A stretch of DNA of 64,000 nt from Amoebophrya sp. A120 (GCA_905178155.1 CAJINV010000004.1:3001014-3065013); one strand, 5' to 3'; shown: positions 4,050 to 63,715, counted from the stretch's first letter. The notes: a model not told the origin generated them from the letters alone. Numbers and translations are program-made.

Positions 4050-7000
4050 TCATTTTCCCTTTCTAGCAGGTTCTGGATTCTCACTTACAAGCTCGGATTG
4101 TGCAGCTGCAATAGACTCCCTACTGGTCGTCCTACTGCTGACCGGAATCTTCCCAGCAAGATCGTTCTCGTTGCCGCTGTATTTGTTCCTCCCTGCCGCC
4201 GTGGTGATATTTGGGTTCTTACCAGGGAAGTCTTTCGTGGAAGTTGAACCGCGACTCGGAGCCGGGCTCAGGATTGCAGAGGCTTGATGATCTTCATCTG
4301 TTCCAGCAGTTGCACCAGGTCCTGCTCCCAGTGGCAGACGTTGAACAACTTGGACTTGGTCTATTTCTGAGGTAGAACTCGGAGAAAGGGACCGCGCAAT
4401 TCTCGCGGGCGTTGCGATGCTGAACTCCTCCCGCGGCGGACCGCCGTCGTGCTGCGACGTAGACCGGGGTGTCGGAGAGGTGAATTGGTGCGTCGAAAAG
4501 TGGTTCGAGGACGATGTATGTCCCAAATTCAGCCGGGGGAGTTGTAGGTGATTTAATTTACCTGACGTTGTCGTTGTTGAACTGCTTGTCGCCGCATGAT
4601 TTTGATCTGTGGACGTCGAGTTGCAGCTTCTGGCTGCAGCACCTGGAGTACCAGCAATCGACCTCCTGACAGGAACAACGACATTTGGATTTGCACCACC
4701 ACTGCTCCCGACCAGGAGATCTTTTGCGACTGAATCAGCAGTATCACATGCAAATATATCTGGGTCTGGAAGACTGGAAGCGGAAGGTTTGTCATTGTCA
4801 TGCTGGGCCAGCATGACTCTCATTTCTGTCATGCACGTTACCCCAAAGTAGCAAACGCTACTTTTTCAGAAGAAGAAACGCAATTTGCCGTGCAGAAGAA
4901 GCAACACGTAGAAGCAGCTCAAAAAGTTGTCATGCTTGGCCGTCAATCGAGATGTCCGCATGATTGTCCACCCTGCATCACAAGTTTCCAGACGAGACCC
5001 AGACATCTTCGCAATGCATAAGCAGCAGCACGATGGTCCGCAGCGTGGTCCATGTCCAGTCCGTAAAATACGTCGAGTGCGTCAAAACGCGAATTGTTAA
5101 TACCGTCAGCATGGAGTACACCACTGTTGATGTTGTCATGATCGTGGTTCGCATGATCAATGTTCTTGTCGAGAGTAACTGCATGATCCTCTTGCTCACT
5201 GTTGTAATTATACTGCAAAATAGCCGGGGAATCGTAGATTTCGACGTCGGATGCATCCCACGGGGCCGGGGCGGGGGCGGGCTGGTGCTGGTTATGACCG
5301 AATTCACCGACAACATGATCGCCATGTTGATGTACGCGACCTTCATGCTGGTGCATCTTGCCGGTACTCCTACTCGACGAGGGTGGGAAGTAGAAGACCC
5401 CTGCGCGGACGGGGTCGTGCGTCCTCGGAGTGGTCATGAAGTTCCGGTCCTCGCGGGACGTGGTTGTAGCTCCTCCGAATCGCGATGAATAATAGCCGTC
5501 ATGCTGCTCCTCATACGGATGCGGGTCTCTCATCGGGTGAACCAGGTTACTGCGCAATAAATGCTCTCCATCTCGTCCATCTCGTGGCGTCGGCCCAGCA
5601 GAAGACAGGATTGCTCCACGACGAGCGGATCGAACCCCGCGGGCACTCGGCGCTGCAAAGCGGAACGCAGCGGCATCAACAGGATTCTGGTGGTTTTTAG
5701 AATCGACATTCCCATTTTCATCGCGTTGCGCTCGTCGCTCTGCTTCTCTTAGCGCTAAATCATGTTGATGTTGTTCCTGTTCTTGATATGCTGGTCGTGA
5801 GTGTGCAGAAATTTGCGGTGCATCTGCACCATCTTGTTCTTCCCCGCAACATTCCAGATCCACCAGCCGTAACGACAATTCCCGCAAACGCGCCACTTCC
5901 TGCTCCTTTTCCGAAGACAGCCGCTCGAGGTTTTTCCTCACTACCTCCCGCTCCAATGCCAAAACCGTCCGACACTGCTGCTTGGAGCGCTGCAACTGTC
6001 CGGTTTCCCGGGCAAGGATGGACAAGAGTCGGCGGCCGACACTTCGTAGCGAAGGTGCTGCGGAGGTCGGGGAGGTCGTGGTGGTAGAGGCAGCATGACG
6101 ATCATCTACTGCACCTCCAGTAGTACAACCATCAACCGGCCGGACGAAATCGGCGAAAGAAGATGATGAATCGTAGAACATCATAGCTCGTCCTGGCGGA
6201 GGTGACCTAGGATTGTCATTGTGAATGTGATTCAGATTCTGCTGGTGCTGTTGGTCTCCTTCAGGAGCTTGCTGTCGTATCGTGTTGCTGGCTTGATGAT
6301 GAGCTGGTGCTGGTGCACCACTCGGAGTGACACTTTCAAATTCCTTTTGCTCACCTTCTCCGTAGCTGCTGTCCTCCTGAAACAGCAGGTCGTAAAGTTG
6401 CAGCCACAGTTTTCCGTCCGCAGCCCGGCCCGCGTGGTACATCCAAGTGAGGGCGAAAACAATCGCCCGCGCTTGCAAGTTCCACGTCAGAAACGAAGTA
6501 GACCCGGCAAGGCCTGCTGCTGCACCGTGCTGCAAGGCTAGGTCGGTGACAGAAGAAGAGCCACCAAATCCACCCCCGAGGAAGAAGGGGAAGAAAGCGG
6601 AGAGTAAGAAACCCTTCCCCGCAATCGCCACGCCGAGGCACTCGTGCAGGAACGCAGCCTTTTCTACCGTGCGAAGAATATTGTAGGCGGACGTGGAGAG
6701 GAAGGCGTCCAAACGGAACAATTGCGCAAGGAGAATGGCTTCGTGTTGCGGATCCTGTTTTTCAACATGATCTCCGTCACGACGTCCGAATGCAGCAAAT
6801 CGTTGCGTCAACTTTTCTTGCTCTTCGTTGCTTTGCAGCAAGCGGAGACACCGTGTCCGGAGAAAGATCTTGTAGCTGGCGAGTAGACAATCCGACGCGC
6901 TCCAGAGAGACACGAACCACGGGTCTCCAGCACCAGTGCTGCCCCCTGTCGCCGAGCTGAGAACGACATTGGCGCCGAAGCTGAAGAACGTGCCGAGTCC

Positions 7001-9023: not shown

Positions 9024-11560
9024 CTATCTCTCCCCCATCTTCCGCATTTCCTTGAGCTTTTCGTCGCGCATGCGTTGTTGGTCCTGCTGTTGCTTTTCGA
9101 ACAGTTCCCGCCTCTCCCGCACCTTGGGGTCCACCCACGCCGAGGTCCAATCTGTCGTGTCCGCTTCCTTGAGGGACTTGTGCTTGACCTGCCCCTTGAA
9201 CCCGAAATTCCCGCGCCGGACCTGCATGGATGCTGGCAGGAGTTGCTTGTCGAACTTCTCGGAGTCCAAGGCCTGGTTGACGTCTCTGCGGTAGAGCATC
9301 TCCGACCCGTCCTATGACAGCGCACAACTCCCCCTCCCCCTCATTTGTATGGCATGGCCGGCAATACAAGCATCAGCGAGAAGTTCAACTTTGCATGACA
9401 AATTTACACTAGAGCGTATGGCTATTTGGGCTACCAGAACTTGTCATGCAAGCAGTGCTATCATCATCATGTAGTGGACACCCGCACCCAGCGCCACAGG
9501 TCAAGGATCCCCTCCCCGGGGGGTGGGCGAGGAAGCACTTTCGGCGACCTCATCGTACAAAAGTACGAAGCGGAAAAACTTCCCCAAGCCCATTTTTCAA
9601 AAATTTGCAGTGCTAAGAGGCACAGTCTGGATTTGGGGTTTTGCATGACAAATGAGGGGGAGGGGGGGTTGGGCACTCTCATACGTCCATCTTCTTGTCC
9701 ATAAAGTACCCGCCCTGATGGTGGTACTTCTGCATGAACCCGAACTGCGATTTTTCCGCCTTGCTGGCCATCAGCGGGTTCTCCTTGTCCATGCGCTCGT
9801 CGTCCTCCTGGCGCTCCAGGTCCGTCATCTGCCTTCGCTTTTCCAACCTTTCGAACTCCTCGATCCGCTGCGTGCGCAGCTTCTGCAAAGACAGAACGCG
9901 CTCCAACTCCCGAATCTTCCAGAGTTCCATGGACTCCGCGGTTTCATCCTCGTCCGAATCTAAGCTGTATTCACTCTCTATCACAGCAAAAAGTGTTAAC
10001 GCTAACGGAATTTGCGATGCAGCAATGCATCACAAAACATGCCAAAATTTGTATATGCATAGCATGCATATTGCACGACATTTGTGATGCATAACTGCAA
10101 TCGTCAACGTTAACACTTTTTCTTGTGATACTCTCGCTGTGGATCACCCTGTCCTCGTTGATCGCATCGATGTCCTCCTGGGCGACGCGCTCCGCCACCA
10201 TGCGCTTCGCGTCCTCCTTCTTCTGCTTCTTCAGGATCCGGTTCTCCTGCTCGAGCATCTGCTCCTCGGCCACTTTCGCGGCCTTCTCCCGCTCGGTCGC
10301 GCGCATACCTGGTTAGGGTGGATAGACTTGCTTATACTAAGTTCGTTCTACAAGAAAACAAAAGTTGCACGAGATGATACGTACGTAGCAGGACTGCTAC
10401 ATCAACCCAGGTGCGTTGTAGCTGTTGTAGCTGGTGCACTTACAGGAAGTAAGGACTACAAATAAAATCATTCGCATTATGTACCTTTTGGCACGAAGAC
10501 CGGCTTCGCCAGTTTGGCCCCGGGGCCGTCACTGTCACTTGAGGAACTTGTGTCACTATCGCTGTCGTCGAGCACTTTGGAAACCGCCGCCCCGCCGACC
10601 GGCTCAAGTTGCAAGAGCCCAGCACCTGTTGATGTACCGCCAATTCCACCGACTTTGCTGCTGCTCCGGCTTTCCTTCTCCTTTTCTCTGTCCTCCTTTT
10701 CCCTCTCCACCAGCTCTGCCTGTTTTCGGGCGCGCTCCAACGCGATGCGGCGTTTCTGCGCAGCGTCCTCGGCGACTTCGGAGTCCTCGGAATCCGACGC
10801 GGAGTCGTCGTCATCGTCGTCAACATCTCCCCGGCCAGGCCGTGGGAGAAGCGGCTGGGCGAGCGGCGGCTGGTCGGGCCTGAAGAGCGTTTCTCTATTT
10901 TTCAGAAGCTTTTTTCAGAAAAAGTAAGCGGTCGAACTCGAAGCGGAATTGTTCTTCTGCAACATTCATATGCAAGTGGTCACGAAGAGATAATTGAGAG
11001 GGAAAGTTGCACTTTTTCAGCAACACAAAATTCGTTGCATCACGGCCTTCTTGTTGAACAAAATCAGTATACCGGTCCGCTTCGTCCCCCGTTCCACCTC
11101 CGTCGTCGGAGTCGTCGTCCAATTCCACTGCGGCCTGCAGCTTTTGCCTCTTTGCTATTCGGTCGTGCACGGTTTCGTTGATCGTCCGACTCGCCACTTC
11201 TGTCACCCTTGTCTGCGCCACCCCCCCGTAGACCTTCTGTCGCGCGTGCGCGGGGGGCTTCGACGGTGCGGAAGTAGACGATCCATGGTGTCGCTCCGCG
11301 CGCAAGTGGTCCGCGGCCGCCCGGAGCCCGCGGGACTGCTGCTGGGCTTGGAGCAAGGCGTTTTGCCTTTTTATCCGCTCCTCCTGCTCCTGCTGCCGCT
11401 CCTGCTCCTCTAGCTCCTTTTTCAAAAACGCTGGCTCCGCCCCGGCGCGGTGGCGAAAGGTTCTGTTTTGCTGCTTCTCGCGGTTCTTGGGCACAAACTG
11501 GGCCGTGGCCGGGTTCTCGCCCTTGTACAGGATGGAGTGCTGATACTCGAAGGAAGCCAT
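9024..11560 (-). CDS. MFAP1: MFAP1 / Spp381-like spliceosomal B-complex protein; GT-AG introns 10309-10484 and 10895-11072 plus two TIR introns
   Basis: ELWKIRELER, FMQKYHHQGGYF, LLPASMQVRRGNFGFKGQVKHKSLKEADTTDWTSAW match the MFAP1 C-terminal domain. Confidence 0.9.
9313..9683. mobile_element. Intronic TIR element, family E, with a nested insertion
   Basis: TATGACAGCGCACAACTCCCCCTCCCCCTCATTTGT...ACAAATGAGGGGGAGGGGGGGTTGGGCACTCTCATA; DR CGTCC. Confidence 0.92.
9461..9606 (-). mobile_element. Short non-LTR retroposon-like insert with an (ATG)n tail
   Basis: 9-bp TSD GCAGTGCTA at 9452-9460 and 9607-9615; (CAT)n at the left end; first ~100 bp shared with 15900-16003; empty site seen in the family-E copy near 62875. 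Confidence 0.8.
9979..10130. mobile_element. Intronic TIR element, family F
   Basis: TATCACAGCAAAAAGTGTTAACG...CGTTAACACTTTTTCTTGTGATA; DR CTCTC. Confidence 0.92.
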
Positions 11561-14544: not shown

Positions 14545-17500
14545 TTAGAGCGCCAGGTCCTGGTCGTTGACGTCGTATTTCGCGATGCACACCAGCGTGT
14601 CCCCCAGGTGCAGCAACTCGTCAAACACGTGCGGCGCGGCCATGATAAACCGCGGCTCGATGTCTTTGGTCAGTTCTTTGATGGCGCTGTCCTTCGGGGG
14701 CGGCGGCAGTTCGTTGGGGTTGAACTTCTATCCTGTGCAAAAGTATCGTAATATTCGTATAAATGCATTACAAATTTCCCTAGCATGAGAAATAAAATTT
14801 GTAATGCTGATTTACCTAATGCATCATCGCAATACGAGTACGAAGATGCTTTTGCAATGCATAACTTCTTCCGCTTCTCGGCCTTCTCGTGCTTGATCAG
14901 GCGCGCGATGCCCACCGGAATCAGGTTGTGGTGCCACATCAAGGACTCCATGAAGTTCATCAGAGGCATATTACAATGAAAAATGCCCCCACCCCCGAAC
15001 TTGAAAGCATTTGTATTGCAAACCTTTCCAAATGAAACATTCGCCCTCTTGCATGTATCAGCATCACAGATTTCCGATCGTGAATACCAAAAATTTGCAT
15101 TGCAAAAGATCCCAGCAAGAGCGGTGCTTGTCATGCAAGCGATGCAAAACACGACTAGACTCTGCATCAGAAAGATTCGTACTCCTTTCATGCATGACAA
15201 AAAGTTTTCATTTGGAAACTTCGCAACACAAATCTTTGCAACTTTGGGGGTAGGGGGCACTTTTCACTGTAATAAGGCATGCCCACCCAGTTCTGCGGCA
15301 CGTCCACTGTGGCGCCCTTGCACATAATCATAGCCTGCACGAGGGAGACCAAACTTATCCAGGAAAAAACACCCAACTTCTACATCCCCATCCATTTTTT
15401 GCATGACAAACGCTGCTTTTAATGCATGTTAATGTTTTGCATTTGACAAAGTGGATAAGGAAGATGGGTGATCTTCTTTCGTGGATAAAACTCGTGTTGT
15501 ACAGAATGTTGACCATCAGACTGGTGATCATACTCGAGCAAAACAACTTCCCGCAGCAGTATCTCGGCTGTCGCAGCAGGGCCGCCCGGTGGGCCGCCAT
15601 GTCGGCCTCGTCGGACAAGTCTCCGCCGTCGTTTATCCTGAGCAAAAACGTTCCCGCCCCAGCGCCAAGATGGGAAATCCGCTAGAGGAATCAGCCACCT
15701 CTGGTTGTTTCGCATGACAAGTTGATCCTCATAGTGTAATCCTGTTTAGCTAGCTCCGAAGCATCACAGATCTAGCATATTGTCGTGCTGATTCTAGCAT
15801 TACAACTTCAAAAACAGGAAAAGAAAATGGCTCTCATGGGGCTCCGCATCATCATCATCATCATCATCATGGGGCTCAGCATCTCATGGGGCTCCGCATC
15901 ATCATCATCATGTAGTGGACACCCGCTCCCAGCGCCACAGGTCAAGGACCCCCTCCCCGGGGGGTGGGCGAGGAAGCACTTTCGGCGAGCTCATCATACA
16001 AAAGCCGAGCGCTACCACGGCAAGTCGCCCCATGAAAAGTACCAACCAGTCGGGAGCTACCCACCACACCTGATCAGTACAGCCCGGCCAGCTAGCCGAG
16101 CGCGACAGCCCAACATACAGAACGATCCAGGACCCGACCCATTTTACGCCTTACGTTTTTGTTCCCACGGAAGAGACGACGTACCCCTTTGGGTTAAGGG
16201 GCGAGACTCTCCCTTAAGCCGCAACCCCGCCCGGACAGGGGAGGCTGGACCGTTTGCGCCTTACCTGCGGCACGGGCGAACCGGGCAAGTGCACGGACCA
16301 CAGACCACCGGGCAAGTGCCGCATGAGAAATTTTTTTGGCATGCAGATTTGCATGACAACTCTGGTGTGGGGACGTTTTTCCTCAGGATATCGTTCGCGT
16401 CGTCCTCCGACGTGATCTTGCCCTTGGATCTTAGCGGAACCAGGTAGTAGTTTTCGTCCACGAGCAATTCGAGAATGACGCTGGTGGTGCAGAGGGGCGG
16501 CAAACTTCCCTCGATCAACTTGCAACAGAAGATGCCGTCGCTGTCCACCATGTTCATGTTGTGCGGAGCTTTGTAGGTGTCCGCGACGAACTGGGCGCTG
16601 GTGCTGGCGGGTATGCAATACAAATTTCCCGTACATGTAAGTACAAGCTGCATCACAAATTTCGCCAATTTGGAGCGTACTAAAACTTGTCATGCTAAAC
16701 TCGGATCGAGTTTAACTTTTGTCATGCAGAGACCGCATTTGTACGTGTACGGGAAATTTACTGTGGATAGCGGAGCTGGTGCGGTACATCTCGCGGTAAT
16801 CCTCCGTCTGCTTGCTGAACACTTTGCTGCCCTTCGCACCCGCGCCCCGCCGCCGTTTTCTCCCCGCAGAGCCGGCGAGGATGACGATACAGGAGGTATG
16901 AAAGCCTCAGAATGGAAATCCTCAAAGTGGAAATAACTTGTGATGCATGAAATGCAAGGCAAAAAAGACTGTATTGCAAAGGAGACAATGGAGGCCGACT
17001 ATTGTCCTGCTAGGGGTGAAGAATTGGGCTGCTGATTAGCACGACAGAAGGGCACCCCTTTGCCTAACTAACATTACAGGCACGTTTTGAGTGCCCGGGA
17101 AATTCGTCATGCGCCGACTACAAACGGCACTTCAACTGGAGTCGTTTTCTTGCATTACAAATTATTTCCACTTTGAGGATTTCCAACCTGAGGCTTTCAT
17201 AGGAGGCGTGTTCGAAGTTCGCCCGCCGCAGGTCAAACATGTTCATATGGCGTTCCCAAGTGTTACATTCTCAACTGTTACGCGATTTGTAATGCAGAAT
17301 CGCAATCAGAATCGACACGATCAAGCTGCTCCGCATGACAAATTCTCGAAGAGCCAAGCAGGCTGAGAATCTTTGCCAGATCTGTCATGCAAGACGCGCA
17401 AGGTGACCCCTTTCACTTTTGCTATTCTTGCATCACAAATCCATGTAACAGCTGAGAATGTAACAGTTGAGAACGCCATAGTTCATGGGGTTGCCGTGCA

Positions 17501-37346: not shown

Positions 37347-38493
37347 TTATTCATCCCCGTCACCGCCAACGCGATTTCCCGCCCCGGAAAAGGGCGTGAA
37401 GGTATTTTGCTGCTGCCCCCGGGCGGAGGGTGTGGAGCCCAGCTGCCCGCTGCCGTAGTCCTGCACGCCGCCTCGTTCGCTCCCGAGCTGATTGTCCGGC
37501 TGGATGGGCGCGTGCACACCACCCATGTTCTATCCTGAGAAAAAAGTGTAAGTGTTGCAGTTACACGACACTCTGATGGAAGACAAGCAAGACAGACGAC
37601 CTCTGTCATGCAGGAAATCAAGAAGTGCGTCGTGCCAGCCTCATTTCATATCGTGTTTTTCTTTATAGTGGTCTGCGCATCACAGGTTTTCTTTGCCATG
37701 TCGAGCGACTTTGCGATGCAGAAACTCCAACAAATGTTAATGTGTAGCTGTAACACTTTTTTCCTCTGATATGTTCTCGAACTCCTCCACTGTTTTGTTG
37801 TAGACAATGAAGCTGGTGATGGACACCCCCCAAAGCGCGATGATGCCGAGAAGCGACAATGCGGAAATAAAGTTCCACTTGGTCACGGACACACCGTCCG
37901 GCATCTTGCTGGCGTCGTTGGTGAACATCGGCGGCGATTTTGGCTTCACCATGCGGTCGATCAAAATCACGATCGCAAAAATTCCCTGCAGAAACGTCAC
38001 CATGCCCCAGGTTACCTATGTCCGGATATGGATTCAGCGTGAACTCTATACTATGTGGACGCTTGTTTCATCTGTTGGATGTATTCTATTTACTAATAGT
38101 TGCGTCACGTATGAGTACTACGACATACTTACATTGCAGCTTGTGCAGTTGCATCATTTTAGCCCAAGTTCAACATCTCCATTTGCATTCATCGAAGCTA
38201 TTGTTACTTCTTCTTCATCTATCCATCAAGACGTCTATAGTCGTAAAAATACGTCGTGGAGGAACTTGCTTCTATACCAGGCACTGCATGTCCACGGAGC
38301 CATCGCGCAGCGTGAAGAGTCCGACGGAGGCCAGCAGCATGGTGACGAAGCCGCCGAGGATGTCTAGCATCACGAACTGCTGCACCGCGTGGGCAAACAG
38401 GAAGAGGATAAACACAAACAACACGTAGCGTGCCCGCAACGCACAGCGGCTGGGCGTCGGCGCCACCGCCACAGCTGGAAGAGGGATCACCAT
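37347..38493 (-). CDS. Four-TM membrane protein with a C-terminal SHP-box-like motif; GT-AG intron 38016-38277 and one TIR intron
   Basis: Hydrophobic ORFs 38272..38493 and 37737..38003; last exon ends FTPFSGAGNRVGGDGDE*. Confidence 0.75.
37531..37771. mobile_element. Intronic TIR element, family F-like
   Basis: TATCCTGAGAAAAAAGTGT...ACACTTTTTTCCTCTGATA; DR TGTTC. Confidence 0.9.
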
Positions 38494-49600: not shown

Positions 49601-52600
49601 CTTCCACTCTTGCTGTTCTCGCGTGACAAATCGACTGCTACATGAATTTGCGATGCAAGAATGGCAAAAGTACTTGAAAGGGAGGGCCTTGCGCGTCTTG
49701 CATGACAGACTCTGCGGAGATTTTTATGGCCCTGATTGGTTCCTCTTCCTCGAAAATTTGACACGTGAAGCTGCAGCTTCGTGTCGATTCGGATGGTAAA
49801 AAGTAATTTTGCATGACAAAAATCACGTAAGTGACACCAGTTGAGACTGTAACGTCGTTTGACCACTCCATATTCCGGTGTGGCGGGTAATTCGAATTTC
49901 CACAGCTGCGACACGAGCTGGTGCATCAACAGGCGGAGGATGAACTCGAAAGGGATCAAAATCGGGGCGATTTTGGAGAGCACTCCGAAAATGTAGGGAA
50001 ACACATAATCCACCACGGCGCTAAGCACCACCTCCGTGACCGTACGCACGGAGGCGCCCAAGTTCCGGGCCCCGAGGTTTTTCACATACTCCACGAATGA
50101 AGATGAGCTCGAACGGATGAAACGGCGGACGCGTTCTGTGGCGACACCAAACTTTTGCACCGCGAGCTCGGCACCTCGGTGGGCGTTATCGCGCCACGGC
50201 GTCACGAATTGCGCCACGCGGCCAAGGCCAGTGCGAAGCCATGACAAGCGGTGGCCGCCCGAGCGGGCGGGTGGTGCGGCTTCTTCGTCGCCATCATCAT
50301 CTGCAGTAGGAGGGGCTAAACGCAGGACCTCATTGGACTCGATGTCTTGCGCAATCCTGAATAAAATCGTCCCCGGCCCAGACTTGATGTCATGCGTAGT
50401 TGCATCTACAGGAGCATTTGTAGTGGAGTGTGCCTCTTCATGAGTGGCAGGCGCAGTCGTGTTCTCAACTACATCACGGCCCTCGTATTAAGACTAAAAA
50501 CAGATTAACATAGCCAGCAGATGGCTTTGTGAGCTCCGGCCGTCCCTTCTGAGAACCTGCACTACTAGTACGCGACGAATGGAACAAAATTGGCATGCGT
50601 GACTCCCTACTCATGCTCTTCTGCGTTTTTTGATGTGTTGTAAGTATGCAAAATGATTTCGATCTTGACTTTTGGATTTCTGGGGGCGCTCTTTTCACAC
50701 AGGATACGTGCCCTTTTATCTGCCTTTTCGTAAAAATCCTCTACGTTCTCCCCCGCTGAGATCTCCCCTCTGAGTTCCGCGTCCTCGTCCGGGTCCAAGT
50801 TTGGTACCCCGGAGCCGGCTGCTTGGTGCTTTTGCAGAAATGCCACCCCGCCGTCCTCCGCAACAGCACTGGCACTGCCTGTTCCACCACCGGATGTGGC
50901 CGCGTCCCCGCCCGGGCCTCCTCCGTTGTTTCGCGTGAACGTTGCTGTTCTTGCAACTGTTGCGACCGCAGTCCTTACTACCTGCACGGCGGTACCTGCG
51001 CTGGATCTTGCGCGACCGAACAGTGCCGTGATCTTGCTCCAAACACTTGTCTTCAACGAATTCAGCGCTTCGAGTGCCCGCTCAGGCAGCATTGTGCGGA
51101 GCGAAGTCCGAAGCTTTTCTGCTCCAGCCTTCATAAACTCGACAAATTTCTTAACCAAACTGGGCAAGTGGTCTTTGAGTACGTGTTCCAGTAGTTCGGT
51201 AATCTTGCCTTCGAACTGGATACCCAGGACCAAAACCACTGCCTGCACCAACTGGTTTGCGAGCTTTCCAGTGAGCCAAGCGGGCAGTTTGAAGAGATGT
51301 AGCACCCCGAGCACGAGGTCGGAAACAATCGCCGCCAGTTTGAACAGCATTGCATTGTACAGCACGCTGGAAAACAGGCGAGCAATATTTGCAGACAGCC
51401 ACTCGACCATGCCCGCACCTGCACTCCACATCTTGTTCATCACGGTCTCCAACGATATGGAGCCGAAAAGGTCCCGGACCCTCCTTGTCACGCGTTTGAA
51501 AAAGCCCTCTCTACTCTGGTTCTCCGGGTTGCTTGTCTCGGTCTTGACGCTCTCCGCCATTTGTTCGTTGGCTGTTAATGCCAGGGTCTGCACCTCGCCG
51601 CCCACGGCTTCCCAACCCTCCTTCACTTGCGTTTCCGCTGCGTCCACTTTCGTGTCTGCCTTCACATCATCCAGTGTCTTTTTCAGGCCCTTGTCGTTCA
51701 TTTCATCGTCCACCTTCTCGGTGATTTTATCCTCGTTTTCCTTGTCGTCCGGTACGGATGGATCACGTACTTCTTGTTCTTGAGGGTCTCCTCCTCCTTC
51801 TCCATGCGCAAGCACACCTGAGGAAGATGGCACTCGTTGCTCAACATCCGCCGCCGGCTCGTCCACGTGGTCCTTCTGCGGGGCTGCTTTTTTTTCTCCG
51901 AAGAGCTTGTTCAGAAGGGCCCCCGCAAGCTTTTTGGCTTTCTTCAGCACTCCGTGGCCGAGCTCTGCGAGCTTGCGGGCCAAGTGCCCTAAAGCCGCCT
52001 TGACTCGCCCGCCCACGGCCGTCACACCCCACCAGGCAAACTTCCCGAGGTTTTCGAGCAGGGCGACAACCTTCGGAAAATATGCATTTTTGCAAACCTA
52101 ATGTCTACTCCGTTTGGAAGAATTATGCATCAAACTACTCTTTGTACTGGTCGTGCGCGCCCAACGCCACCTGGCTGGACCACAGCAAACTCTGTGTTCC
52201 TTCATGGGATGTCCTGCTCGGATAACGATACTAGCGATTATTTCTCATGGGGAACGGGTATGGGCATCACAAGGTGGCCTGGGCAGAACCTGTAGCGCCG
52301 CTTTTACGTGCAACATAATTATAATTGATTCGAAACGCAGACCAAACCATAACCATCTGTAGAAGTGTGATCCTGATTTACAACTAAGAGACGCATGACA
52401 GAGACGCGCAATCTTCCAGACCTGGAGAACATGGCAATCATTGTAACTAGTGGATAGAAAAGCGGCGGTAACAAGCTTCCAGAGCTGCTCGAGCGCTAGA
52501 CGCACGACGTATGGCACAATGGACACCACAAGGCGTCGGCCCACGACGTCTACAAGTAACTTGCGCAAGAACTGCAAAGGCCCCTTGTTCATGAATCGTT

Positions 52601-54357
52601 CGACCATTTTTTTCACGGTGCCGTGAAGGTAGTCGCCGATGGGCACCGCGACCCCGGGCACGAATCGAAACAGGGTCGCCTGCGCTGCCACACCAAGGGT
52701 CAAACTGGTGGTCTGCGCCAAGCGGTCGGTCAGCACCCCGAACATACGCGTAAAACGCGCCTCCCCAAGAGTCATCTTGGTAATCCATATCCACAGAAAA
52801 AAGCTCATCCATATTATCCATTTTTTGCATGACAAACAGAGGATCTTACACGTGTATTGCATGACAAATTGGATGATGATGTGGATGGGTGTTTTTTCCT
52901 GGATAATCCACTTCACGGCGTTAGAGCCCGCATCCATCAGTTTGTCCTTCAGCCACATCGCTTTGTCGAGCAGGATATCAAATGCAAAAATGTCTGGGAT
53001 TGGAAGGATGCAACTTGTCACGCTAAATCTGAATCATGCAAAGTTCTCTGTTGCATGATTAGTCGTCCAGTTTTGACCAAGTCGGGAGGGAGTTTCTCAT
53101 GCAGGACAGGGACGATAGAGATCGCACAGAATCTGTCACGCTAGGTCCTGCATTCCAGACCTCGTGGGTCATGGAAAAGCTGCATGACAAATCGCGCACT
53201 GTTCCAGACCCAGACATTTTTGCATTTGATACAGGAACCGGAACGGCTTTTTCAAATCGGGAACCCGCAGTTTTCCCTTCGCTTTGTGCCAGAGCTGCCC
53301 CACAGTGTCGAAGATTCGCCGGGGAAACCAAGCTTGAATCCGCTTCTCTTTTTCCCCACCAGGAGCTGGGCACTTGTTATCCATTTTCGGGAAGACCTCA
53401 GTCGTATCCGGTGCCAACAAAAAGTGTGTCACCGCAGTATGGAATTCTTCAGCTTTTTTACATTGATAGCTGCTACTATGATGTAACAAATGATTAATTT
53501 AGATTTATTTGATTTGTGCAGTAGATGCATAAAAAGCGGAACCGTCAGGGCCAGGGGGGGGCTTGCGTGTCGCGCATTGGAGATTTCGAATGCAACGTAC
53601 TTCTCCAGTCGTCGTGGTCATGAGCAGAGAGGTTACTTATAATGCGCATTAGCTTGAACATGCAATGCATGGGTGCGAGTGATTCTGTGTGGCAACAAAT
53701 GATCATGCAACAGCGATCAGTGTAACGTTTGAGAGTCGTAGTCCCATACCCACGCTCGACTTTGTCATCTTTCTCGTTTTCGACACTTACGTCATTCATC
53801 TCCTCGTCGTCATCTGTTAGTGTGGGTGGTTCCTCATTTTTAACCCGAAGACGATAGTTTTCGGCCTCCTCAGCCGCCTGCTTTCTGTCAGCTTCTTGCT
53901 GGGCCAGCCTGTCAGCTTTTTTCTGGGCGGCCCTCTGAGCTGCTTCCTCGGCCAACCTCTGCTCCCTCTCCCGTACTCCCCTGTCCAGCGCAGCGGCGAC
54001 ATCTGGGTCTAGTCCGAATTCCTGGGCAAACTCCAAACCATAGTATGCCCGTCGCTGTAGCGCAGTGCTCTGCACGACTTGGTCCGTTTCCAGTATCCGC
54101 GGCGAGAGAGAGCGTGTGTCGTCGGTGTTCTGAATACTACTAGTTATCCCATCTGCCTCAGATGAGTCGTTTTCAGTCTCCTGACCCTCCTTCCTTCGCA
54201 GTTCCATCAGCTCTGCAGCAACGAAGAAGCCGGGAAACGTTGGTGCGGTAATCGTGGTAAAAATACCGGTATCAACACTGCCTCCCAGCTCGAGCGCTCT
54301 GGCCAAGAAGAGATGAAATACGCCAAGTGTGAAAATACTACCCAGCAGCGACAACAT
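46614..54357 (-). CDS. Very large orphan protein, probably secreted or membrane-associated, with amphipathic helical and acidic blocks; 7 TIR introns (link to the 5'-most exon uncertain)
   Basis: ORFs 52245..53021, 50607..52025, 49513..50247, 47938..49422, 47248..47436 and 46614..46886 join in frame after element removal (plus one inferred GT-AG intron ~50469-50707); signal-like MLSLLGSIFTLGVFHLFLARA at 54357. Confidence 0.6.
46618..46690. repeat. Coding 21-bp tandem repeat (DEPRPEP x3)
   Basis: GGTTCAGGACGAGGCTCGTC(C/G)TGC, three copies. Confidence 0.9.
46910..47259. mobile_element. Degenerate intronic TIR element, family D
   Basis: TCTCCTGAGCAAAAACGTC...GGCGTTTTTACAAATGATA; element+5 gives FTQ|GKVAAKMREY. 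Confidence 0.78.
47389..47623. mobile_element. Intronic TIR element, family J
   Basis: TATGGCGTTCTCAAACGTTACA...TGTAACAGTTGAGAACGCCATA; DR ATGGA; same length as 17246-17480. Confidence 0.93.
47657..47975. mobile_element. Intronic TIR element, family A
   Basis: TATGCGTTGCGAACATGTCTGGGTCTGGAA...TTCCAGACCCAGACACATTTGCACTTGATA; DR GCGCG/GCGTG. Confidence 0.9.
48281..48406. repeat. Coding duplication (QP(S/G)AAAAGAG(A/G)SPAS x2)
   Basis: Two ~47-bp copies 78 bp apart. Confidence 0.8.
49440..49872. mobile_element. Palindromic dimer of family-J elements acting as one intron
   Basis: Forward J copy to ~49632, then an inverted J copy from ~49642; TAT...ATA ends; element+5 gives TPE|SRSLLEINE. Confidence 0.78.
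52081..52456. mobile_element. Degenerate intronic TIR element, family A-like
   Basis: TATGCATTTTTGCAAA...TTCCAGACCTGG...GGATA; DR GAAAA; frame restored AAF|PKVVALL. Confidence 0.8.
52788..52905. mobile_element. Intronic TIR element, family H (reverse orientation relative to 15356)
   Basis: TATCCACAGAAAAAAGC...TGGGTGTTTTTTCCTGGATA; DR ATCCA. Confidence 0.9.
52976..53231. mobile_element. Intronic TIR element, family A (interior is an inverted copy of 17651-17910)
   Basis: TATCAAATGCAAAAATGTCTGGG...CCCAGACATTTTTGCATTTGATA; DR CAGGA. Confidence 0.93.
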
Positions 54358-55959
54358 GTTGATCGCGAACAAATAGAAAAGGACCAAGACCAGCCCCCTT
54401 CTCCCGCATGATGCGAGCCTTCGACTGCTGGAGTGCTCGCCCTGGTGATGGTGTGCGCGTAAAAACCTCCTGTCCTCAATAACAGCTGCATTGATTTTCC
54501 CGCTGTCGATAGGCGATCTGAGAAAGCCGCCACGGCGCTGAAGACTAAACGGAGGTCGCATCCTCGATGAAGTTGAAGCTCTGCAGCTGCAGCCTTTTGA
54601 CTTTGATATCGTGGCTCTCGATTAAAAGTAGCACCCTTTTGAACTTGTCCCCGAGTGCAACAACTAGGTCGCGTCCCTTGAAGAAGATCGTTCCATCGCT
54701 GTGCTGATCTTCATGATCAATCGAGCCGGGCAGAATCAGAAAGTAAGAACTAAAATCATTCAAAGTGTCGATCTCCTAGGCGGGGGGTGCCTCATCAAAT
54801 ACAAATAGTAAAACTTTTATACTTCAAAATAACATCGGGGTGGGAGAGGTCCTCCTCCTCGTCCTCGTCGCATCACAATTGTAGTTGGACGCACGGCAAC
54901 AAAATGCCAAGAACAAGTTGAAGCTCTGTTCAAATATGACTTGTTAAACATAAATTCGCAAAAAGAAGTTGGATATGCTATTTCGCCTTTTCCTCCATGC
55001 GCGATATCATTATCAATAAACATGTAGTTATGTGTTACTGGCAGCTTCTCTGGCGGTTAAGACGACAGCACCGCGACCAACTTATATCGATGAAGAAACG
55101 ATGAGACAGACCAAAACGCACGGCGGCCGACCGATCAAGACTGACGTCAACATCCATGCCAGAGTCTATTCATATTCTTTGGATGCACCGATCTCGATCC
55201 TAGTCTTATCGCGATTTCTGACAGCCCCTCGACGGAAGGATTGACCGACTCAGACGAATAAAAAAAGTGGACAATTTCTTGCACTAGTAGAAGTCAAGTG
55301 GCAATATTAGAAGTCGACGAGTTTTGCACTAGTGAAAGTGGACGAGTTGCACTCACAGAAAAACCGAAGAAACCACTTGGAAGTTGTAGTTGTAGATACC
55401 GATTAATGTTGTATCTTGAAAAGTAAAACTCCAAAGGGAAGTTGTAGATGCCGATTTGGATTGCAAGTAGGGCTCCTGCACGACAGGGTCGACGATTCAC
55501 AAACCGGATGAGGTCTGATTCTGAACAACATTCACCGAAAAATACAATTCTCGTAGTCGTCGTTGAGGACTACGACCACTAAAGTACTTACAACTACAAG
55601 TTTGTGATGCCAAAGGACCGACTCATTCGTACCTGTAGCGCGGCACCGGCTGATGTGCTCCTCGCTAATCTTATTTCGGGCAGTGCGAGAAAGAGAATAA
55701 AATCCTGAAGGAACCGACGACCGGCGATGAAGCAGAAGCTCCTTGTTCGATTCGAAAATTATAGATACGCACGAACTCGTGCGCATGAAGTGGTCGAAAA
55801 CGCGCGTACGGAAATCAATCATCCCAGGTTGTTCAGGATCGATCTGGTTCTGTTTTGTGTAGAAGTTCTGGCAACAACATAACATTGGCCAGCGATAATT
55901 ACATTTTTACGTAGCAGCACGACACTTTCTCTTTAAACGCAAGATGAACAAGAACATCT

Positions 55960-58787
55960 TCACGTGAGGTCGATTACCTCAACATCATTTGCTGACATTC
56001 GACGCCGCTTCGCCTGAGAGGATGAAGCGACTTGCTGCTGGAAGTCTACTCTTGAAGAAGGTACTACACGAGGTGGAACTGCTGGCGCACCAGAACCACT
56101 GCTCAACATAATTCCGCCTGCACAACTTCTACCCACACTAGTGCCCTCCTCTCGTTGCGCCCGCATGCGCTCCAGAATGGACTTGTTACGGTCTGCGAGG
56201 GAAGAGGACGAGGCCCCCGCCGCGTAGGCGTAGTTCGCGTTCTTGTCATTATCCCTCACTACAGATGAATCCACCTCGGGCCCCGTTCTTCTTGTTGCGT
56301 GGTTTCGTTGATCTTGATCCATATTCGGATAATTTGAAGCGGTGTAACTTGATGTCTGCCCTGTCGTTCCACCACCACCAGCACCTAAGGGTAGTTGTAG
56401 TTGTGACGAGGAACCACCTCCTGATTTAATTTTTCCGGTCGAAGCTGCAACAGCATCTGCCTCTGCTCGTGCTCCACCCTGATGAGTATTATTTTTGGTT
56501 GTTGTGCCACCTTCTGCTTGTGCACCGAACGTGGTGTTAAACGGCGTCGCTGCGCCAAAAAATCCGCCTGTAGTAGCGCCAAAGGCCGCAAACGACCCGT
56601 CGCTAGGGTATGATGTAGCTGCTGGTCGTGTAGATCCCGATCCGCCGAAACTAGTATTAAAAGTATTTGTATTTATTTTGCTGTTCATCTTCGCCGATTG
56701 TTGAGGTGGCTGTACAACTGCAGCTGCACCAACTACGGGTCGTGTCAAAGCTGAACTGCTGCTGTTGAAAGTTTTTGTGTTCGCGCTCGGTTGATGAGTT
56801 TGATTTCCATTTGTATTTCCGCTGGCGGAGGAGGTTCCAAAAGCTGCGGGTTGGGGTTGTCCAGCACCGAAATAATTATAACCAAACTGCAAAGAAGAAG
56901 TAGACGGCGCTGGCGGCATTGTTGCGCTTTGCAGTAGTTGTTGTCCATTTGACACTGCATTCGAAAAAGCTTCTTGCAGCGGGCCACCTAAAAAAGTACT
57001 TCTGCTGCTCATCTTGCCAATTTTTTCAGATTCTTGGTAGAGGTTCCTTGCGTTTATTCTGTTCGACGCCCCAGCCGAAGGTCCACCAGCAGCAAATGTC
57101 CTCGTCGTGCTGGTGTCAAAAGTCGTCGCGTGGTCACCAGAGGTCGTCGGCAGAAGCGCGTGCGCTTGCGCACCTGCGGCCGGTGGATTACTTGGGTTGA
57201 TATCCTTGTTGCTTTTTGCAGCGTTCTTGGCGGATGTGCCAAACGTCGCTGTAGCTTGGAACTGGGACCGCGACGACGAACTTGCGGCCGCAGCAGTGCC
57301 AGATCCAGATGCTGGCATTTGACCCGTAGTTCCCGTAGTGAATACTCTTTCCATTCCACCGGCGAAAGTCGACACTGCGGCTGCTGCTCGTGCTACTGCC
57401 CCAGTGGCAATTATGGAAGCGTCAGGATTGAAATCGTCAAAGTTGAAATAATTTGTGATGCATAAAAAAAACCCACAAAGCGCCTGTCTTGCAGAGTAGG
57501 CAAGGGAGGCCGATTGCAAGCCTGTTGAGGGGTAGAAATAGAGCTGCTAAAGTAGCATGACAAAAGGTGTTTTCCTTACCCAAACAGCATTACAAACTGG
57601 ATTTAGGCACCACCAAAACTTGTCAAGCGCCACTTGCAAACTGGGCTCCAACTGGCATCCATTTTATGCATGACAAAGTATTTCAACTCTGACGATTTCA
57701 AACCTGACACATCCATAGCAATTGTTCCACTAGTTGTACCGGGGGCAGGACCCGCGTTTTCTTGAATAAATGTCGGCCCAAATGTGCCGCCTTGTCGTGT
57801 CCCACTTTTTTCGGTCACGACAACGTCATGACCGGCAGGTCCCGTGGCAAAAGCGAGGCCAAGTCCGCGCCGTAGCCCGCCGACATTGATATTACTACGG
57901 GATGGAGCTGTTGTATATCGTGTGTAAAAACGGGTCCACCCGCCCACAGTTGCCAGACTACAGCAAATAATTATCCGCATGCCTAAAATGATGCTTCTCA
58001 TGCGCAGGAGCACAATAGGGGGCAACTTCTAGTGGTAGTGCTATTTTGTCTGAAAACAAGAAGACCTTCAGAATTTGTCATGCCCGAATCAGGACCAGAC
58101 GCTTGACCTGGAAAATCTTTCCGTCGCTAGACGCGATGACAATGACATTTCGAGCAGGAGCTCGTCATAAGGAAAAACAGCCAAAACTTGATGTTGACTT
58201 GTCGTAGCAGGGTCTGGGGGGGCCAACCGCAACGCAGCAAGAGGTTTTACACATGATACTGTAGGTGGGGGCATTATTAAAGAACCTCCGCCACTGAACG
58301 CCGCTGGCGCGGCTGTCGCCGCCGTGTCAGCACCCACTGTCACTGGTATCGTCATCATGTTCCCCCGGTTATCCAAACTACCGCCCGCACCGGTCGCCTG
58401 ACCTTCCGCGGGCATTGTTGTGAACGTCTGCCCGCCACCAGCTGCACGTGATGATGAACCGCCGGGAGGAACTACGGGCTGCGCGGGCACGTGCGCCGTG
58501 GTCATGATCTGGGTTGGAGGACCACCACCACTTGCAGCTTTCTTTGGCATCGAAGATCCTCCAGAAGGAGCCCTGGTGACTCCCGAGCCCGCCGCGTCTC
58601 CCGGACAACTTCCGGTCTGTAGCGCGGTGTCATACTGTGGCAAGGTTGCCCGGAAGACCCAGTTGTCAACGTGCTGCGGCTGGCGAACGACCGCCACGTC
58701 GAATCCGTACGCCACGGTCTTCATCACATCGCCGCGAACGGTCTCGAACCACGCTGCCTGCTCCAAAAAATTCGTCTTCATGATCAC
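55960..58787 (-). CDS. Hypothetical low-complexity (Gly/Ala/Thr/Ser-rich) protein; two TIR introns; start uncertain
   Basis: ORFs 58089..58787, 57603..58025 and 55960..57519 join in frame (PT|AAPSR; GTI|ATGAV). Confidence 0.7.
57412..57717. mobile_element. Intronic TIR element, family I
   Basis: TATGGAAGCGTCAGGATTGAAATCGTCAAAGTTGAAATA...CTGACACATCCATA; DR GCAAT. Confidence 0.93.
57916..58258. mobile_element. Degenerate intronic TIR element, family D-like
   Basis: TATCGTGTGTAAAAAC...GTTTTACACATGATA; DR TTGTA/CTGTA. Confidence 0.78.
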
Positions 58788-61968: not shown

Positions 61969-63715
61969 CTACAGCTCCTCCTTTTCCATGGGCAATTCAC
62001 CGGACTCCTTGATCACCAGCTTGGCGGCCGGCTTTCCGCTTGGAGACTATGCACCATAAATTTCCCGCACGTGTACGTCAAAGTGCATCACAAGTAAGAA
62101 TGGCACCAAATCAAAAACAACTTGTTATTCAGAACCAGAAAAGTTTGTCGTGCGGAAAACTACACATTTGTACGTCGTCTGCAGGAAATTTACTGAGCAT
62201 AGGGAGCCCTTACCCTCAATGGCCTTCACGACGTCCTGGCCTTCGAGAACCTCGCCGAAGACCACATGCTTGCCGTCCAACCACGGAGTTTTGACCTGAT
62301 CAAAATCAAATCAGGAGAATGGGATATAACAATTTCTGCAACAAGGAAGTGCATGGCCACAGATCAGCCCTCTAAACTCAACCAGTATGTAGGAGTAGTA
62401 GTAGACAAATTTTTGCATGACTGGTGAGAAGTGTGATCTTCCTGTATTCATTTCTGTAGTACGCTAATATAGTACCGCACGATGCCTGCACCTGCTTGCT
62501 GCTTGTGCCTAGTAAGTATCTTCCTATGGAAAATATGCGTTTGCGTATCAAAAGCAATATTAAAACAGCTGCCGTATCTATAAAAGAAGTACTGTGGTGA
62601 TGAAGAACTGGGAGCCGTTTGTCCCGGGTCCGGCGTTGGCCATGGAGAGCAAGTACGGCTTTTTGTGCTTGTGCTTGAAGTTCTCGTCCTCAAACTTCTC
62701 TCCGTAGATAGACTCCCCGCCCGGGCTATGAAGGTACAAAAGAACCTCCACTCATTTGTATTTGGCATGAACAACGATACAAGCGTCAGCAAGGGTTGAG
62801 GCTTTGCATCACAAATTTGCACATCAGAAGACCGTAATGCCATGTGTTTAGGCTCCTGCAAGAACTTGCCATGCAAACAGTGCCAAGAGGAAAGGCGTGC
62901 ATTATAGGTGCCTTGCATGACAAATGAGGGGGGTTGCGTGCACTCTCATACGTCCCATCGCCGTTGGTGAAGTCCCCGCCCTGAAGCATAAACTGCGGGA
63001 TCACCCGATGAAACGTGCTGCCCTGGTAGTGCAGCGGCTTGCCCATCTTTCCTTCGCCCTTCTCACCTTGTTTATTTGGGGTACTACGTCTGCATGATCT
63101 CGTACTTCTTCGCGATATTCAAACGAAAAAGCAAGTAAGTTGTAGCCTAGAAGCCCTGGTCTGATTCATCATCTGCGCAACAGTACACTACTTGTGCTGC
63201 ACAAGGTACCGGATGAAGTCCAACAAAATATTCCACCACGCGCTCTCGTGCAGCACCAGGATAGGTGGTATCAATGTAAACAATTTTACCTGTGCACAAT
63301 GCCCTGAAGTTTTCTGCAGTTTTTGGAACGCTCTTGCCGTACAGACCCATCACTATCCGACCTCCATCCTCACCGCCAAGTGTTACGTCGAAGTATACCT
63401 GATATGCACAAAAACTACACAATGTGATACTCATACTTATACTTATAGATCATTCCGGAGTTTTTGCAATCAAACACATCAAGAGTACTACAGCTGTGCA
63501 GCATCAAATAACCGTGACGCTACAACTAGTTACACCTCCCATGCAAAGAAAAGAACTTGGAGTCTGCTCTCGTAAATAAGCGAGAAGAGCGCATCAATCC
63601 TGTTCAGAAATAGAAGTACCTTGCTGGTAATCTTTGGTCCCTTCTTTTTCTTCTCGTCCGCGGCTACTCCACTAGCGGCGCCCAGAAAGGCGAGCAACTT
63701 GATGACTTGCCTCAT
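61969..63715 (-). CDS. ER-type cyclophilin (cyclophilin B-like PPIase) with signal peptide and C-terminal KEEL; several introns
   Basis: [58 protein letters not shown], ends [10 protein letters not shown]. Confidence 0.95.
62048..62201. mobile_element. Intronic TIR element, family C (DR decayed)
   Basis: TATGCACCATAAATTTCCCGCAC...GCAGGAAATTTACTGAGCATA; element+5 gives GKGS|PSGKP. Confidence 0.85.
62727..62950. mobile_element. Intronic TIR element, family E (DR decayed)
   Basis: TATGAAGGTACA..CTCATTTGT...ACAAATGAGGGGGGTTGCGTGCACTCTCATA; element+5 gives GDGT|GGESIYG. Confidence 0.87.

What the first reader, a model, noticed from the sequence alone, without database searches (positions are those of the whole stretch)
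4742..62950. One excision grammar (5-bp DR + TAT...ATA ends) shared by ~10 otherwise dissimilar TIR families interrupting exons
Seen: 36 complete elements (92 bp to ~2.9 kb) start TAT and end ATA (a few single-base variants) and are flanked by a 5-bp DR of any sequence. In more than 25 cases translated by hand, deleting the element plus exactly 5 nt restores the ORF, including conserved motifs of cyclophilin, MFAP1 and the BK-like channel, and even where the DR has decayed. Most sense-strand DRs (CTGCT, GAACA, AACGA, CTTCA, ATCAT, AAGAC) cannot give GT-AG in any register. Established: Amoebophrya genomes are known to contain non-canonical introner-like introns with inverted and short direct repeats, so the class is not new. 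Inference: the family-independent end rule points to one mobilising enzyme and one precise, non-GT-AG removal pathway.
Basis: partly seen in the sequence, partly recalled or inferred. Interest (0 to 1): 0.85.

Follow-up and report, generated by a model that had tools for sequence, protein, structure and literature searches.

The report
Amoebophrya transposon introns, one-base splice signal
These 38 hairpin-ended inserts are copies of the already published transposon-like introns of the plankton parasite Amoebophrya A120; assemblies of likely RNA runs lack them with exactly one copy of their 5-base flanking repeat, and the cut likely needs only the hairpin and one fixed U, which gives a test of how this unexplained splicing works.

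Summary
I count 38 TAT...ATA elements with 5-bp flanking repeats (26 perfect). The host is Amoebophrya sp. A120 (100% protein match). All 27 junctions I could read in contigs of likely RNA runs remove element+5. A DNA-like run reads through the five it spans. Only 1 of 38 has a GT/GC-AG register.

The class is published for this genome: TAT starts and 3-5-nt repeats (Farhat 2021), and a family noted as '5-bp TSD, TA/TA termini' (Gozashti 2025).

Not found in print:
(1) One cut register, 1 base before and 4 after the element, fits all 27 junctions.
(2) The first T at the transcript's 5' end is invariant (371/371), while its mirror base varies 16 times (p=3e-5). That T is intron +2, the U of GU.
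(3) A GCATNACAA motif lies in 353/371 elements, in both orientations.

The scan's earlier notes on other pieces of this genome already report all three. Likely mechanism: a relaxed, hairpin-guided spliceosome, so 'non-GT-AG' is right but a separate machine is not shown. No transposase was found, so 'one enzyme' stays an inference. The families are not wholly dissimilar.

The parts
4742..5020 (-). element, 279 bp, DR CTGCT perfect
   Evidence: RNA-like contig skips 284 (piece table)
9313..9683 (-). element, 371 bp, DR GGACG perfect, in MFAP1
   Evidence: Pfam pieces abut at profile position 169; joint not among rows shown
9979..10130 (-). element, 152 bp, DR GAGAG perfect, in MFAP1
   Evidence: joint not among rows shown
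14729..14863 (-). element, 135 bp, DR GAAGT, channel gene
   Evidence: RNA skip 140
14969..15274 (-). element, 306 bp, DR TGCCT, channel gene
   Evidence: RNA skip 311
15356..15487 (-). element, 132 bp, DR AGTTT, channel gene
   Evidence: RNA skip 137
15634..16390 (-). element, 757 bp, DR AACGA, carries a module shared with 9313
   Evidence: RNA skip 762
16612..16769 (-). element, 158 bp, DR TCCGC/CCCGC
   Evidence: RNA skip 163, register 0-4
16897..17201 (-). element, 305 bp, DR CCTCC
   Evidence: RNA skip 310
17246..17480 (-). element, 235 bp, DR TGAAC
   Evidence: RNA skip 240
17651..17910 (-). element, 260 bp, DR GCTGT
   Evidence: RNA skip 265
17990..20881 (-). long element, nominally 2892 bp, with 96-bp tandem array (18287-19666) and 943-N gap (19667-20609), DR GATGC
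   Evidence: RNA skip 2897
20998..21495 (-). element, 498 bp, 3' end variant ATG, DR CCTCG
   Evidence: RNA skip 503
21794..21946 (-). element, 153 bp, 3' end variant ATG, DR GCGCA; opposite orientation to relative 16612
   Evidence: RNA skip 158
22007..22169 (-). element, 163 bp, 5' end variant TAG, decayed DR TGGAG/CGCAG
   Evidence: RNA skip 168, register at most 2
22993..23148 (-). element, 156 bp, DR GCTGC
   Evidence: RNA skip 161
24013..24209 (-). element, 197 bp, 5' end variant TAC, DR CTTCA
24494..24776 (-). element, 283 bp, DR GGTCA; the only one with a GC-AG register
30084..30245 (-). element, 162 bp, DR ATCAT; removal joins a 1026-aa ORF
32220..32464 (-). element, 245 bp, decayed DR ACGTT/CCGCT
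32559..32773 (-). element, 215 bp, DR AGACC/AGATC
34569..34875 (-). element, 307 bp, DR AACAC; removal joins a 461-aa ORF
37531..37771 (-). element, 241 bp, DR GAACA
39910..40166 (-). element, 257 bp, DR GAACA, just downstream of the GPN GTPase exon
43148..43239 (-). shortest element, 92 bp, DR AAGAC
   Evidence: at the edge of the laid stretch, joint not resolved
46910..47259 (-). old element, 350 bp, 3' end variant AGA, DR CCCAG/CCACG
   Evidence: RNA skip 355, register 0-1; low-depth intron-retaining contig; DNA-like run reads through
47389..47623 (-). element, 235 bp, DR TCCAT
   Evidence: RNA skip 240
47657..47975 (-). element, 319 bp, DR CACGC/CGCGC
   Evidence: RNA skip 324, register 0-3
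49440..49872 (-). old element, 433 bp, DR CGGAA/CTAGA (2/5); opposite orientation to relative 47389
   Evidence: RNA skip 438, register at most 1
50353..50706 (-). old element, 354 bp, 3' end variant ATT, DR GCACG/GCGCA
   Evidence: RNA skip 359, register 1-2
52081..52456 (-). element, 376 bp, DR TTTTC
   Evidence: RNA skip 381; low-depth intron-retaining contig
52788..52905 (-). element, 118 bp, DR TGGAT
   Evidence: RNA skip 123
52976..53231 (-). element, 256 bp, DR TCCTG; opposite orientation to relative 17651
   Evidence: RNA skip 261
53438..53748 (-). old element, 311 bp, DR GTGGG/CTGCG
   Evidence: RNA skip 316, register 0-1
57412..57717 (-). element, 306 bp, DR ATTGC
   Evidence: skip 311 inferred from record coordinates of X2 record 8
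57916..58258 (-). element, 343 bp, DR TACAG/TACAA
   Evidence: skip 348, register at least 1, inferred from record coordinates of X2 record 8
62048..62201 (-). element, 154 bp, DR CTCCC/GTCTC, in cyclophilin
   Evidence: RNA skip 159, register 0-1; Pfam
62727..62950 (-). element, 224 bp, DR GGACG/GCCCG, in cyclophilin
   Evidence: RNA skip 229, register 0-2; Pfam
14548..23632 (-). host: BK/Slo-type channel ORF, 893 aa after removing 13 elements and one GT-AG intron (21564-21754)
46617..54621 (-). host: 1736-aa ORF after removing 9 elements, no Pfam family on the two exon ORFs scanned
61972..63118 (-). host: cyclophilin, two elements and one GT-AG intron (62296-62592)
9027..10312 (-). host: MFAP1, two elements

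Best explanation
These are non-autonomous inverted-repeat transposons of Amoebophrya A120 that sit in exons with a 5-bp duplication and are missing, with exactly one repeat copy, from contigs of likely RNA runs; they are likely removed by the cell's own relaxed spliceosome, guided by the hairpin of their ends and a single U. Shown: the anatomy, element+5 removal at 27/27 junctions, removal in both element orientations, and that only one fixed register fits all junctions (intron = 1 repeat base + element + 4 repeat bases, N|UAU...AUA NNNN). Shown statistically: the U at intron +2 is the only strand-asymmetric position in the first 30 bases of the ends. Inferred: pairing of the ends replaces U1, the G at +1 and the 3' AG by holding both cut sites at a set distance, while U+2 is still read by U6 as in GU introns. 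Inferred: the GCATNACAA motif 35-54 nt inside the ends is a DNA binding site for a shared transposase, probably integrase-like, encoded elsewhere or now lost. Because 1+4=5, every insertion is removed without a scar, which would explain how the elements spread through exons.
For: Removal. X1, X2, X4 behave as RNA: they skip three GT-AG introns and have zero depth where DNA-like X5 is flat near 43. X5 has depth 0 at all element joints listed and its contigs read through 46910, 50353, 52081, 53438, 57916, 62048 and 62727. Intron-retaining contigs at depth 8-10 beside spliced ones at 67-187 show that element-bearing RNA exists. Register: at most 1 from 46910, 49440, 53438, 62048; at least 1 from 50353 (listed joint) and 57916 (inferred from record coordinates); chance that all 10 informative sites admit register 1 under random registers is 5e-4. 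U+2: T in 371/371 sense 5' ends, 16 variants at the mirror 3' base, p=3e-5; position 3 leans the other way (6 vs 2), so not a strand mutation bias. U6 A51 pairs with U+2 in the yeast P complex (bioRxiv 10.1101/212811, passages). A120 keeps nearly all spliceosomal proteins and U2, U4, U5, U6 but U1 was not detected (PMC7789003 section 10). Same families are spliced in both orientations. Motif: 71 of 76 window hits lie in elements, 62-fold per base; 353/371 elements; 371 vs 406 hits by sense orientation.
Against: No lariat, branch point or snRNA dependence was tested, and no oriented 5-mer stands out in the last 70 nt (best p=0.007 uncorrected), so a branch site is not evident. The spliceosome normally needs G+1, G-1 and A-2 and none is kept; drift towards G at +1 seen in the window (6/12 vs 4/26, p=0.03) did not replicate in 333 other elements (19/75 vs 80/258), nor was AG enriched. 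All spliced contigs come from one study, are assemblies without strand, and the tables showed 15 of 46 and 15 of 51 joints. The lower bound on the register rests on two sites. Strands in the loci were predicted by a codon model (22/25 minus on the window). In 3 of 36 folded elements the minimum-energy structure pairs none of the terminal 25 bases in register. No transposase was found.
Confidence: 0.55

Rival explanations
1. The elements are removed by a spliceosome-independent endonuclease/ligase or a separate splicing complex that reads the hairpin and one U, convergent with euglenid nonconventional introns.
For: No G+1, AG or visible branch motif; U1 not detected in A120; euglenid introns also have paired ends with a longer 3' overhang, duplications and circular excision products (PMC11282704 section 6).
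Against: The only constrained base is exactly the +2 U of GU introns; the euglenid pyrimidine|purine junction is absent; A120 keeps the catalytic snRNAs and splices GT-AG introns in the same transcripts.
Confidence: 0.25
2. Removal is as described, but the families were moved by several unrelated enzymes and look alike only because splicing keeps insertions with TAT ends and a 5-bp duplication.
For: Gozashti 2025 assign A120 introners to several classes, with automated TSD calls of 2-6 bp in the 38 of 58 family rows I read. A filter exists: with a 1+4 cut only a 5-bp duplication is scarless.
Against: Splicing constrains only the 5' U, yet both ends are TAT in about 98% and 353/371 elements carry the same subterminal motif in both orientations. 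Many 3- and 4-bp repeat calls in my scan are the same elements read with shifted ends (my reading).
Confidence: 0.15
3. The elements are excised from DNA in somatic or stage-specific nuclei, or are absent from the strain sampled, so the 'spliced' contigs are DNA.
For: X1, X2, X4 are only guessed to be RNA by the tool; cut-and-paste anatomy.
Against: The same contigs skip GT-AG introns, have no depth in silent stretches and match exons with 0 differences; the DNA-like run shows no joined form and reads through elements.
Confidence: 0.05

Closest known systems
Introner elements of Amoebophrya sp. A120 (Farhat et al. 2021, PMC7789003; read: abstract, sections 10, 11, 12, 16, 32, supplement legends)
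   Same: Same organism and same elements: IRs starting TAT, seven looser bases, then As; 3-5-nt direct repeats (5 bp in Fig. S19 legend); non-GT-AG; RNA-validated; no transposase in A120.
   Different: The paper leaves the border position unknown and the repeat variable. Here: strictly 5 bp, one register (1+4), invariant U+2, shared internal motif. Figures S19-S25 themselves could not be seen.
A120 introner families in Gozashti et al. 2025 (PMC12130899; read: passages, 38 of 58 A120 rows of supplement file 8)
   Same: Mostly TIR DNA elements of 150-320 bp; family 38 is annotated 'Ginger, 5-bp TSD, TA/TA Termini' with integrase-like homology.
   Different: They report mixed TSD lengths, splice sites and mechanisms across families; no common rule, register or motif is stated in what I read.
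Ginger2/Tdd DNA transposons (PMC2836005, passages)
   Same: TIRs; TDD-4 and TDD-5 make 5-bp TSDs; TAT differs from TGT at one base.
   Different: Termini are TGTNR, not TAT[G/C]; no integrase-type transposase was found here; most Ginger2 make 4-bp AT-rich TSDs.
Euglenid nonconventional introns (PMC11282704 section 6; PMC12621601 passages)
   Same: Ends pair, TSD-like repeats, no GT-AG, more unpaired bases at the 3' end, mechanism open.
   Different: Stem starts at +4/-6 (CAG/CTG) rather than +2/-5 (TAT/ATA); pyrimidine|purine junctions; circles shown there, untested here.
Fritillaria borealis MITE-derived non-GT-AG introns (PMC11282704 section 6)
   Same: Transposon introns with TIR and TSD removed by an adapted spliceosome.
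   Different: They keep preferred dinucleotides (AG-AC, AG-AT); here only U+2 is fixed.

Membership tests
Amoebophrya A120 introner elements | Host is Amoebophrya sp. A120 | tested here: met
   Window GPN GTPase exon 100% identical to an A120 protein, 78% to A25
Amoebophrya A120 introner elements | Terminal inverted repeats starting TAT, then about seven looser bases and an A run | tested here: met
   T 73, A 75, T 74 of 76 ends; A 49, 57, 68 of 76 at positions 11-13
Amoebophrya A120 introner elements | Direct repeats of 3-5 nt at the borders | tested here: met
   5 bp, 26/38 perfect; 285 of 455 short pairs in other A120 DNA
Amoebophrya A120 introner elements | Repeated in the genome | tested here: met
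   23 of 38 have blastn hits at E<1e-20 within 614 kb of other A120 DNA
Amoebophrya A120 introner elements | Removed from RNA without GT-AG | tested here: met
   27/27 junctions read; 1/38 has a GT/GC-AG register
Canonical U2 spliceosomal intron | G at +1 and AG at the 3' end | tested here: not met
   G+1 in 10/38; GT..AG in register 1 in 0/38 and 9/333
Canonical U2 spliceosomal intron | U at +2 | tested here: met
   371/371, strand-asymmetric
Canonical U2 spliceosomal intron | Branch-point motif near the 3' end | tested here: inconclusive
   No oriented 5-mer or fixed-distance motif; a degenerate site is not excluded
Canonical U2 spliceosomal intron | Lariat product and snRNP dependence | not testable with these tools
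   Only assembled contigs mapped; raw RNA runs X8 and X9 barely mapped
Ginger2/Tdd transposons | TGTNR termini | tested here: not met
   TAT[G/C]; TGT in only 4 of 666 oriented ends in the loci
Ginger2/Tdd transposons | 4-5-bp target duplication | tested here: met
   5 bp, as in TDD-4/5
Ginger2/Tdd transposons | Integrase-type DDE transposase | tested here: inconclusive
   None in the window or 614 kb of loci; whole genome not available
Euglenid nonconventional introns | Paired ends with TSD-like repeats | tested here: met
Euglenid nonconventional introns | Pyrimidine|purine junctions, CAG/CTG at +4..6 and -8..-6 | tested here: not met
   All four bases occur at the junctions; ends are TAT/ATA at +2..4 and -7..-5
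Euglenid nonconventional introns | Excised as full-length circles | not testable with these tools
   no suitable reads

The most novel reading that the evidence does not exclude
A120 has a splicing mode in which an intron is defined only by a terminal RNA hairpin and one U: no U1, no G+1, no 3' AG and no fixed branch sequence, with the 3' cut measured four bases past the stem. It is matched to one unknown transposase whose 5-bp stagger equals the 1+4 cut, so any of hundreds of families becomes a scarless intron at any site and in either orientation.
Probability: 0.4. Interest if true: 0.75.

Novelty: already known. Interest (0 to 1): 0.42.

Why it matters
The elements are published, but how A120 removes more than half of its introns without GT-AG and without a detected U1 is open. 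A fixed register and one required base turn that into direct tests: map lariats or circles at known ends, re-annotate the roughly 30,000 element borders, and change +2 in a reporter. If the spliceosome does it, this would be among the loosest natural splice-site rules described and would explain how a transposon becomes a scarless intron. The shared motif is a bait for finding the missing transposase.

Tried and rejected
Whole-genome scan: no genome is held; 147 loci (614 kb) from another A120 assembly served as a sample, seeded with one family's end pattern, so that family was excluded from the unanchored count.
Transposase: the 2.9-kb element is array plus gap; 14 ORFs from long elements and side inserts had no Pfam hit; short integrase, hAT and Tc1 motifs (recalled) gave one hit among stop codons; a 6.2-kb candidate in L072 was a false pairing of two short elements; the end pattern is absent from viral contigs; no earlier scan note holds all the words of my transposase query.
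Motif as branch point: rejected, since its distance to the 3' cut runs from 39 to over 300 nt or it is absent on the sense strand, and it has no orientation bias.
Drift of old elements to GT or AG: seen in the window, not replicated.
Preferred +1/-1 pairs (G/G, A/C): not clearly enriched.
Raw RNA runs X8 and X9 gave 166 and 2 partial reads only; no RNA holder is listed on record.
Roy et al. 2023 (Curr Biol) is not held and may bear on novelty. Paper searches found no Amoebophrya paper holding the motif words; I saw no statement of the register in the sections read; supplement figures are images and were not seen.
Full report
Identity. A GPN GTPase exon of the window is 100% identical to a protein of Amoebophrya sp. 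A120 and 78% to A25. No whole genome was held. Farhat et al. 2021 (PMC7789003; abstract, sections 10, 11, 12, 16, 32 and supplement legends read) describe this genome's introner elements: inverted repeats that start with TAT, 3-5-nt direct repeats, about 29,850 copies in 1,954 families, U1 not detected, no transposase in A120, border position unknown. Gozashti et al. 2025 (PMC12130899; passages and 38 of 58 A120 rows of supplement file 8) class most A120 families as TIR DNA elements and note family 38 as 'Ginger, 5-bp TSD, TA/TA Termini'. The class, the TAT start and a 5-bp repeat are therefore in print.

Observation. An anchored scan found 20 TAT..ATA pairs with perfect 5-bp repeats among 58 pairs, and none in five shuffles. 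With a relaxed scan, RNA joints and curation the list is 38 elements, 32 with exact ends. The duplication is 5 bp and no other length (identity 0.89 against 0.20-0.32). Without fixing the trinucleotide, 17/17 window elements with a perfect repeat start TAT. A pattern scan returned 147 loci (614 kb) from a second assembly whose tested protein is 100% A120. There 285 of 455 short pairs have a perfect 5-bp repeat, against 33, 10, 3 and 0 for 2, 3, 4 and 6 bp, and 147 of 156 non-seed elements start TAT. The longest window element contains a 96-bp array and 943 N. Blastn gives 23 groups rather than about 10.

Removal. Contigs of runs X1, X2 and X4 (guessed RNA, one study; X1 and X4 one sample) were laid on 4000-23500 and 43100-63090. 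They match exons without differences, skip three GT-AG introns and have no depth in stretches where run X5 is flat near 43, so I read them as RNA and X5 as DNA. At 27 of 27 element junctions that could be read the skip is element+5. Of these, 24 are listed joints and 3 come from the piece tables. The tables were cut (15 of 46 and 15 of 51 joints shown) and 11 elements were not read. X5 shows none of these joints and reads through seven elements. Low-depth contigs that keep an element (depth 8-10) lie beside the spliced ones. Removal restores an 893-aa channel ORF, a 1736-aa ORF, cyclophilin and MFAP1; 24 of 38 would shift the frame if kept. Only one element has a GT/GC-AG register.

Register. 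Where the repeat copies differ, the RNA shows which base is kept. Four sites allow at most one upstream repeat base in the intron; two require at least one (50353 listed, 57916 inferred from record coordinates). The only register that fits all 27 is 1+4; under random registers the chance is 5e-4. The intron thus reads N|UAU...AUA NNNN. An earlier scan note (e1-10627456) gave me this lead and I tested it on my own joints.

What is read. I oriented 333 of 403 elements in the loci with a codon model (22 of 25 minus on the window; 70 dropped as ambiguous) and added the 38 window elements. The first T is present in 371/371 sense 5' ends, while its mirror base at the 3' end is changed 16 times (p=3e-5). 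No other of 30 positions passes p=0.03, and position 3 leans the opposite way. A transposase would treat both ends alike, so the asymmetry is best explained by selection on the RNA. That base is intron +2. In the yeast P complex U6 A51 pairs with U+2, while G+1 and the branch A recognise the 3' AG (bioRxiv 10.1101/212811, passages). Related elements are removed in both orientations (three pairs), so the signal is in the symmetric ends. Against a simple spliceosome story: no branch motif is evident, and drift towards G+1 seen in the window (6/12 vs 4/26) did not replicate (19/75 vs 80/258), nor did AG accumulate. T is depleted at repeat position 4, which is both exon -1 and intron -1 (35/284 vs 232/1136, p=0.002, one of several tests); this is unexplained.

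Shared motif. GCATNACAA or its complement lies in elements 71 of 76 times in the window (62-fold per base), 963 vs 317 times in the loci (13-fold, with uncatalogued elements counted as outside), and in 353 of 371 elements, mostly centred 35-54 nt from an end and with no sense bias. It is not a branch point by position or orientation. I infer a transposase binding site; pairing of opposite copies inside the RNA hairpin is an alternative. It is the best support for a common mobiliser, but none was found. An integrase-like enzyme is a reasonable guess from the 5-bp duplication (TDD-4/5, PMC2836005 passages) and from family 38, but the Ginger terminus TGTNR is not met.

Mechanism and rivals. Best reading (0.55): non-autonomous TIR transposons removed by a relaxed spliceosome, with the terminal stem replacing U1 and the AG and U+2 still read. 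Rivals: a separate endonuclease/ligase pathway as proposed for euglenids (0.25; PMC11282704 section 6); several mobilisers filtered by splicing (0.15); DNA-level loss (0.05).

Novelty. Already known as a class, in this same genome. The fixed register, the U+2 asymmetry and the motif were not found in the papers searched or in the sections read; Roy et al. 2023 and supplement figures could not be seen. Earlier notes of this scan on other pieces of the genome report the same three points; they are unchecked AI notes and not independent support. Interest 0.42: the system is not new, but the refinements make an open splicing question directly testable.

Noticed in passing
window 59656-60646: A 934-bp insert flanked by a perfect 57-bp direct repeat, with a 74-bp internal array and a GC hairpin ending in CTAG next to one repeat (Helitron-like 3' end, recalled). 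RNA-like contig X2 skips it, and a GT..AG register exists on the minus strand inside the repeat (59689-60622); an assembly shortcut across the repeat is not excluded. No Pfam hit, no copy in the loci.
   Followed up: partly
window 12865-13926: About 1 kb flanked by a 32-bp direct repeat, with nested inverted repeats at 13054-13328; covered end to end by its own contig in X2. No Pfam hit, no copy in the loci.
   Followed up: partly
window 1-2204: A 119-bp tandem array (1-1158) followed by an element-like right end near 2204 with two motif copies and sequence resembling the start of the 17990 element; likely a second array-carrying long element whose left end is outside the window.
   Followed up: no
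window 9460-9563 and 15901-16004; L028:6433-6573: A 104-bp module 96% identical between two otherwise different elements and present in another locus; it suggests exchange of cargo or a nested smaller element.
   Followed up: partly
L017:505-1608; L075:7024-7995: Long copies of ordinary families that carry non-coding cargo between normal ends; 5-bp repeats perfect. L017 ORFs have no Pfam hit and L075 has no ORF of 90 aa.
   Followed up: yes
window about 10896-11071: RNA-like contigs start at 11072 next to an ATA end with a weak inverted partner near 10896 and no flanking repeat; possibly a very old element in the MFAP1 gene, not counted.
   Followed up: no
oriented repeats, window plus loci: T is depleted at repeat position 4 (35/284 vs 232/1136, p=0.002), the base that is both last of the exon and last of the intron.
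   Followed up: partly
whole window: All genes that I could orient lie on the minus strand, as expected for Amoebophrya co-oriented clusters; element density is very uneven (13 in the channel gene, none in several long exons).
   Followed up: no
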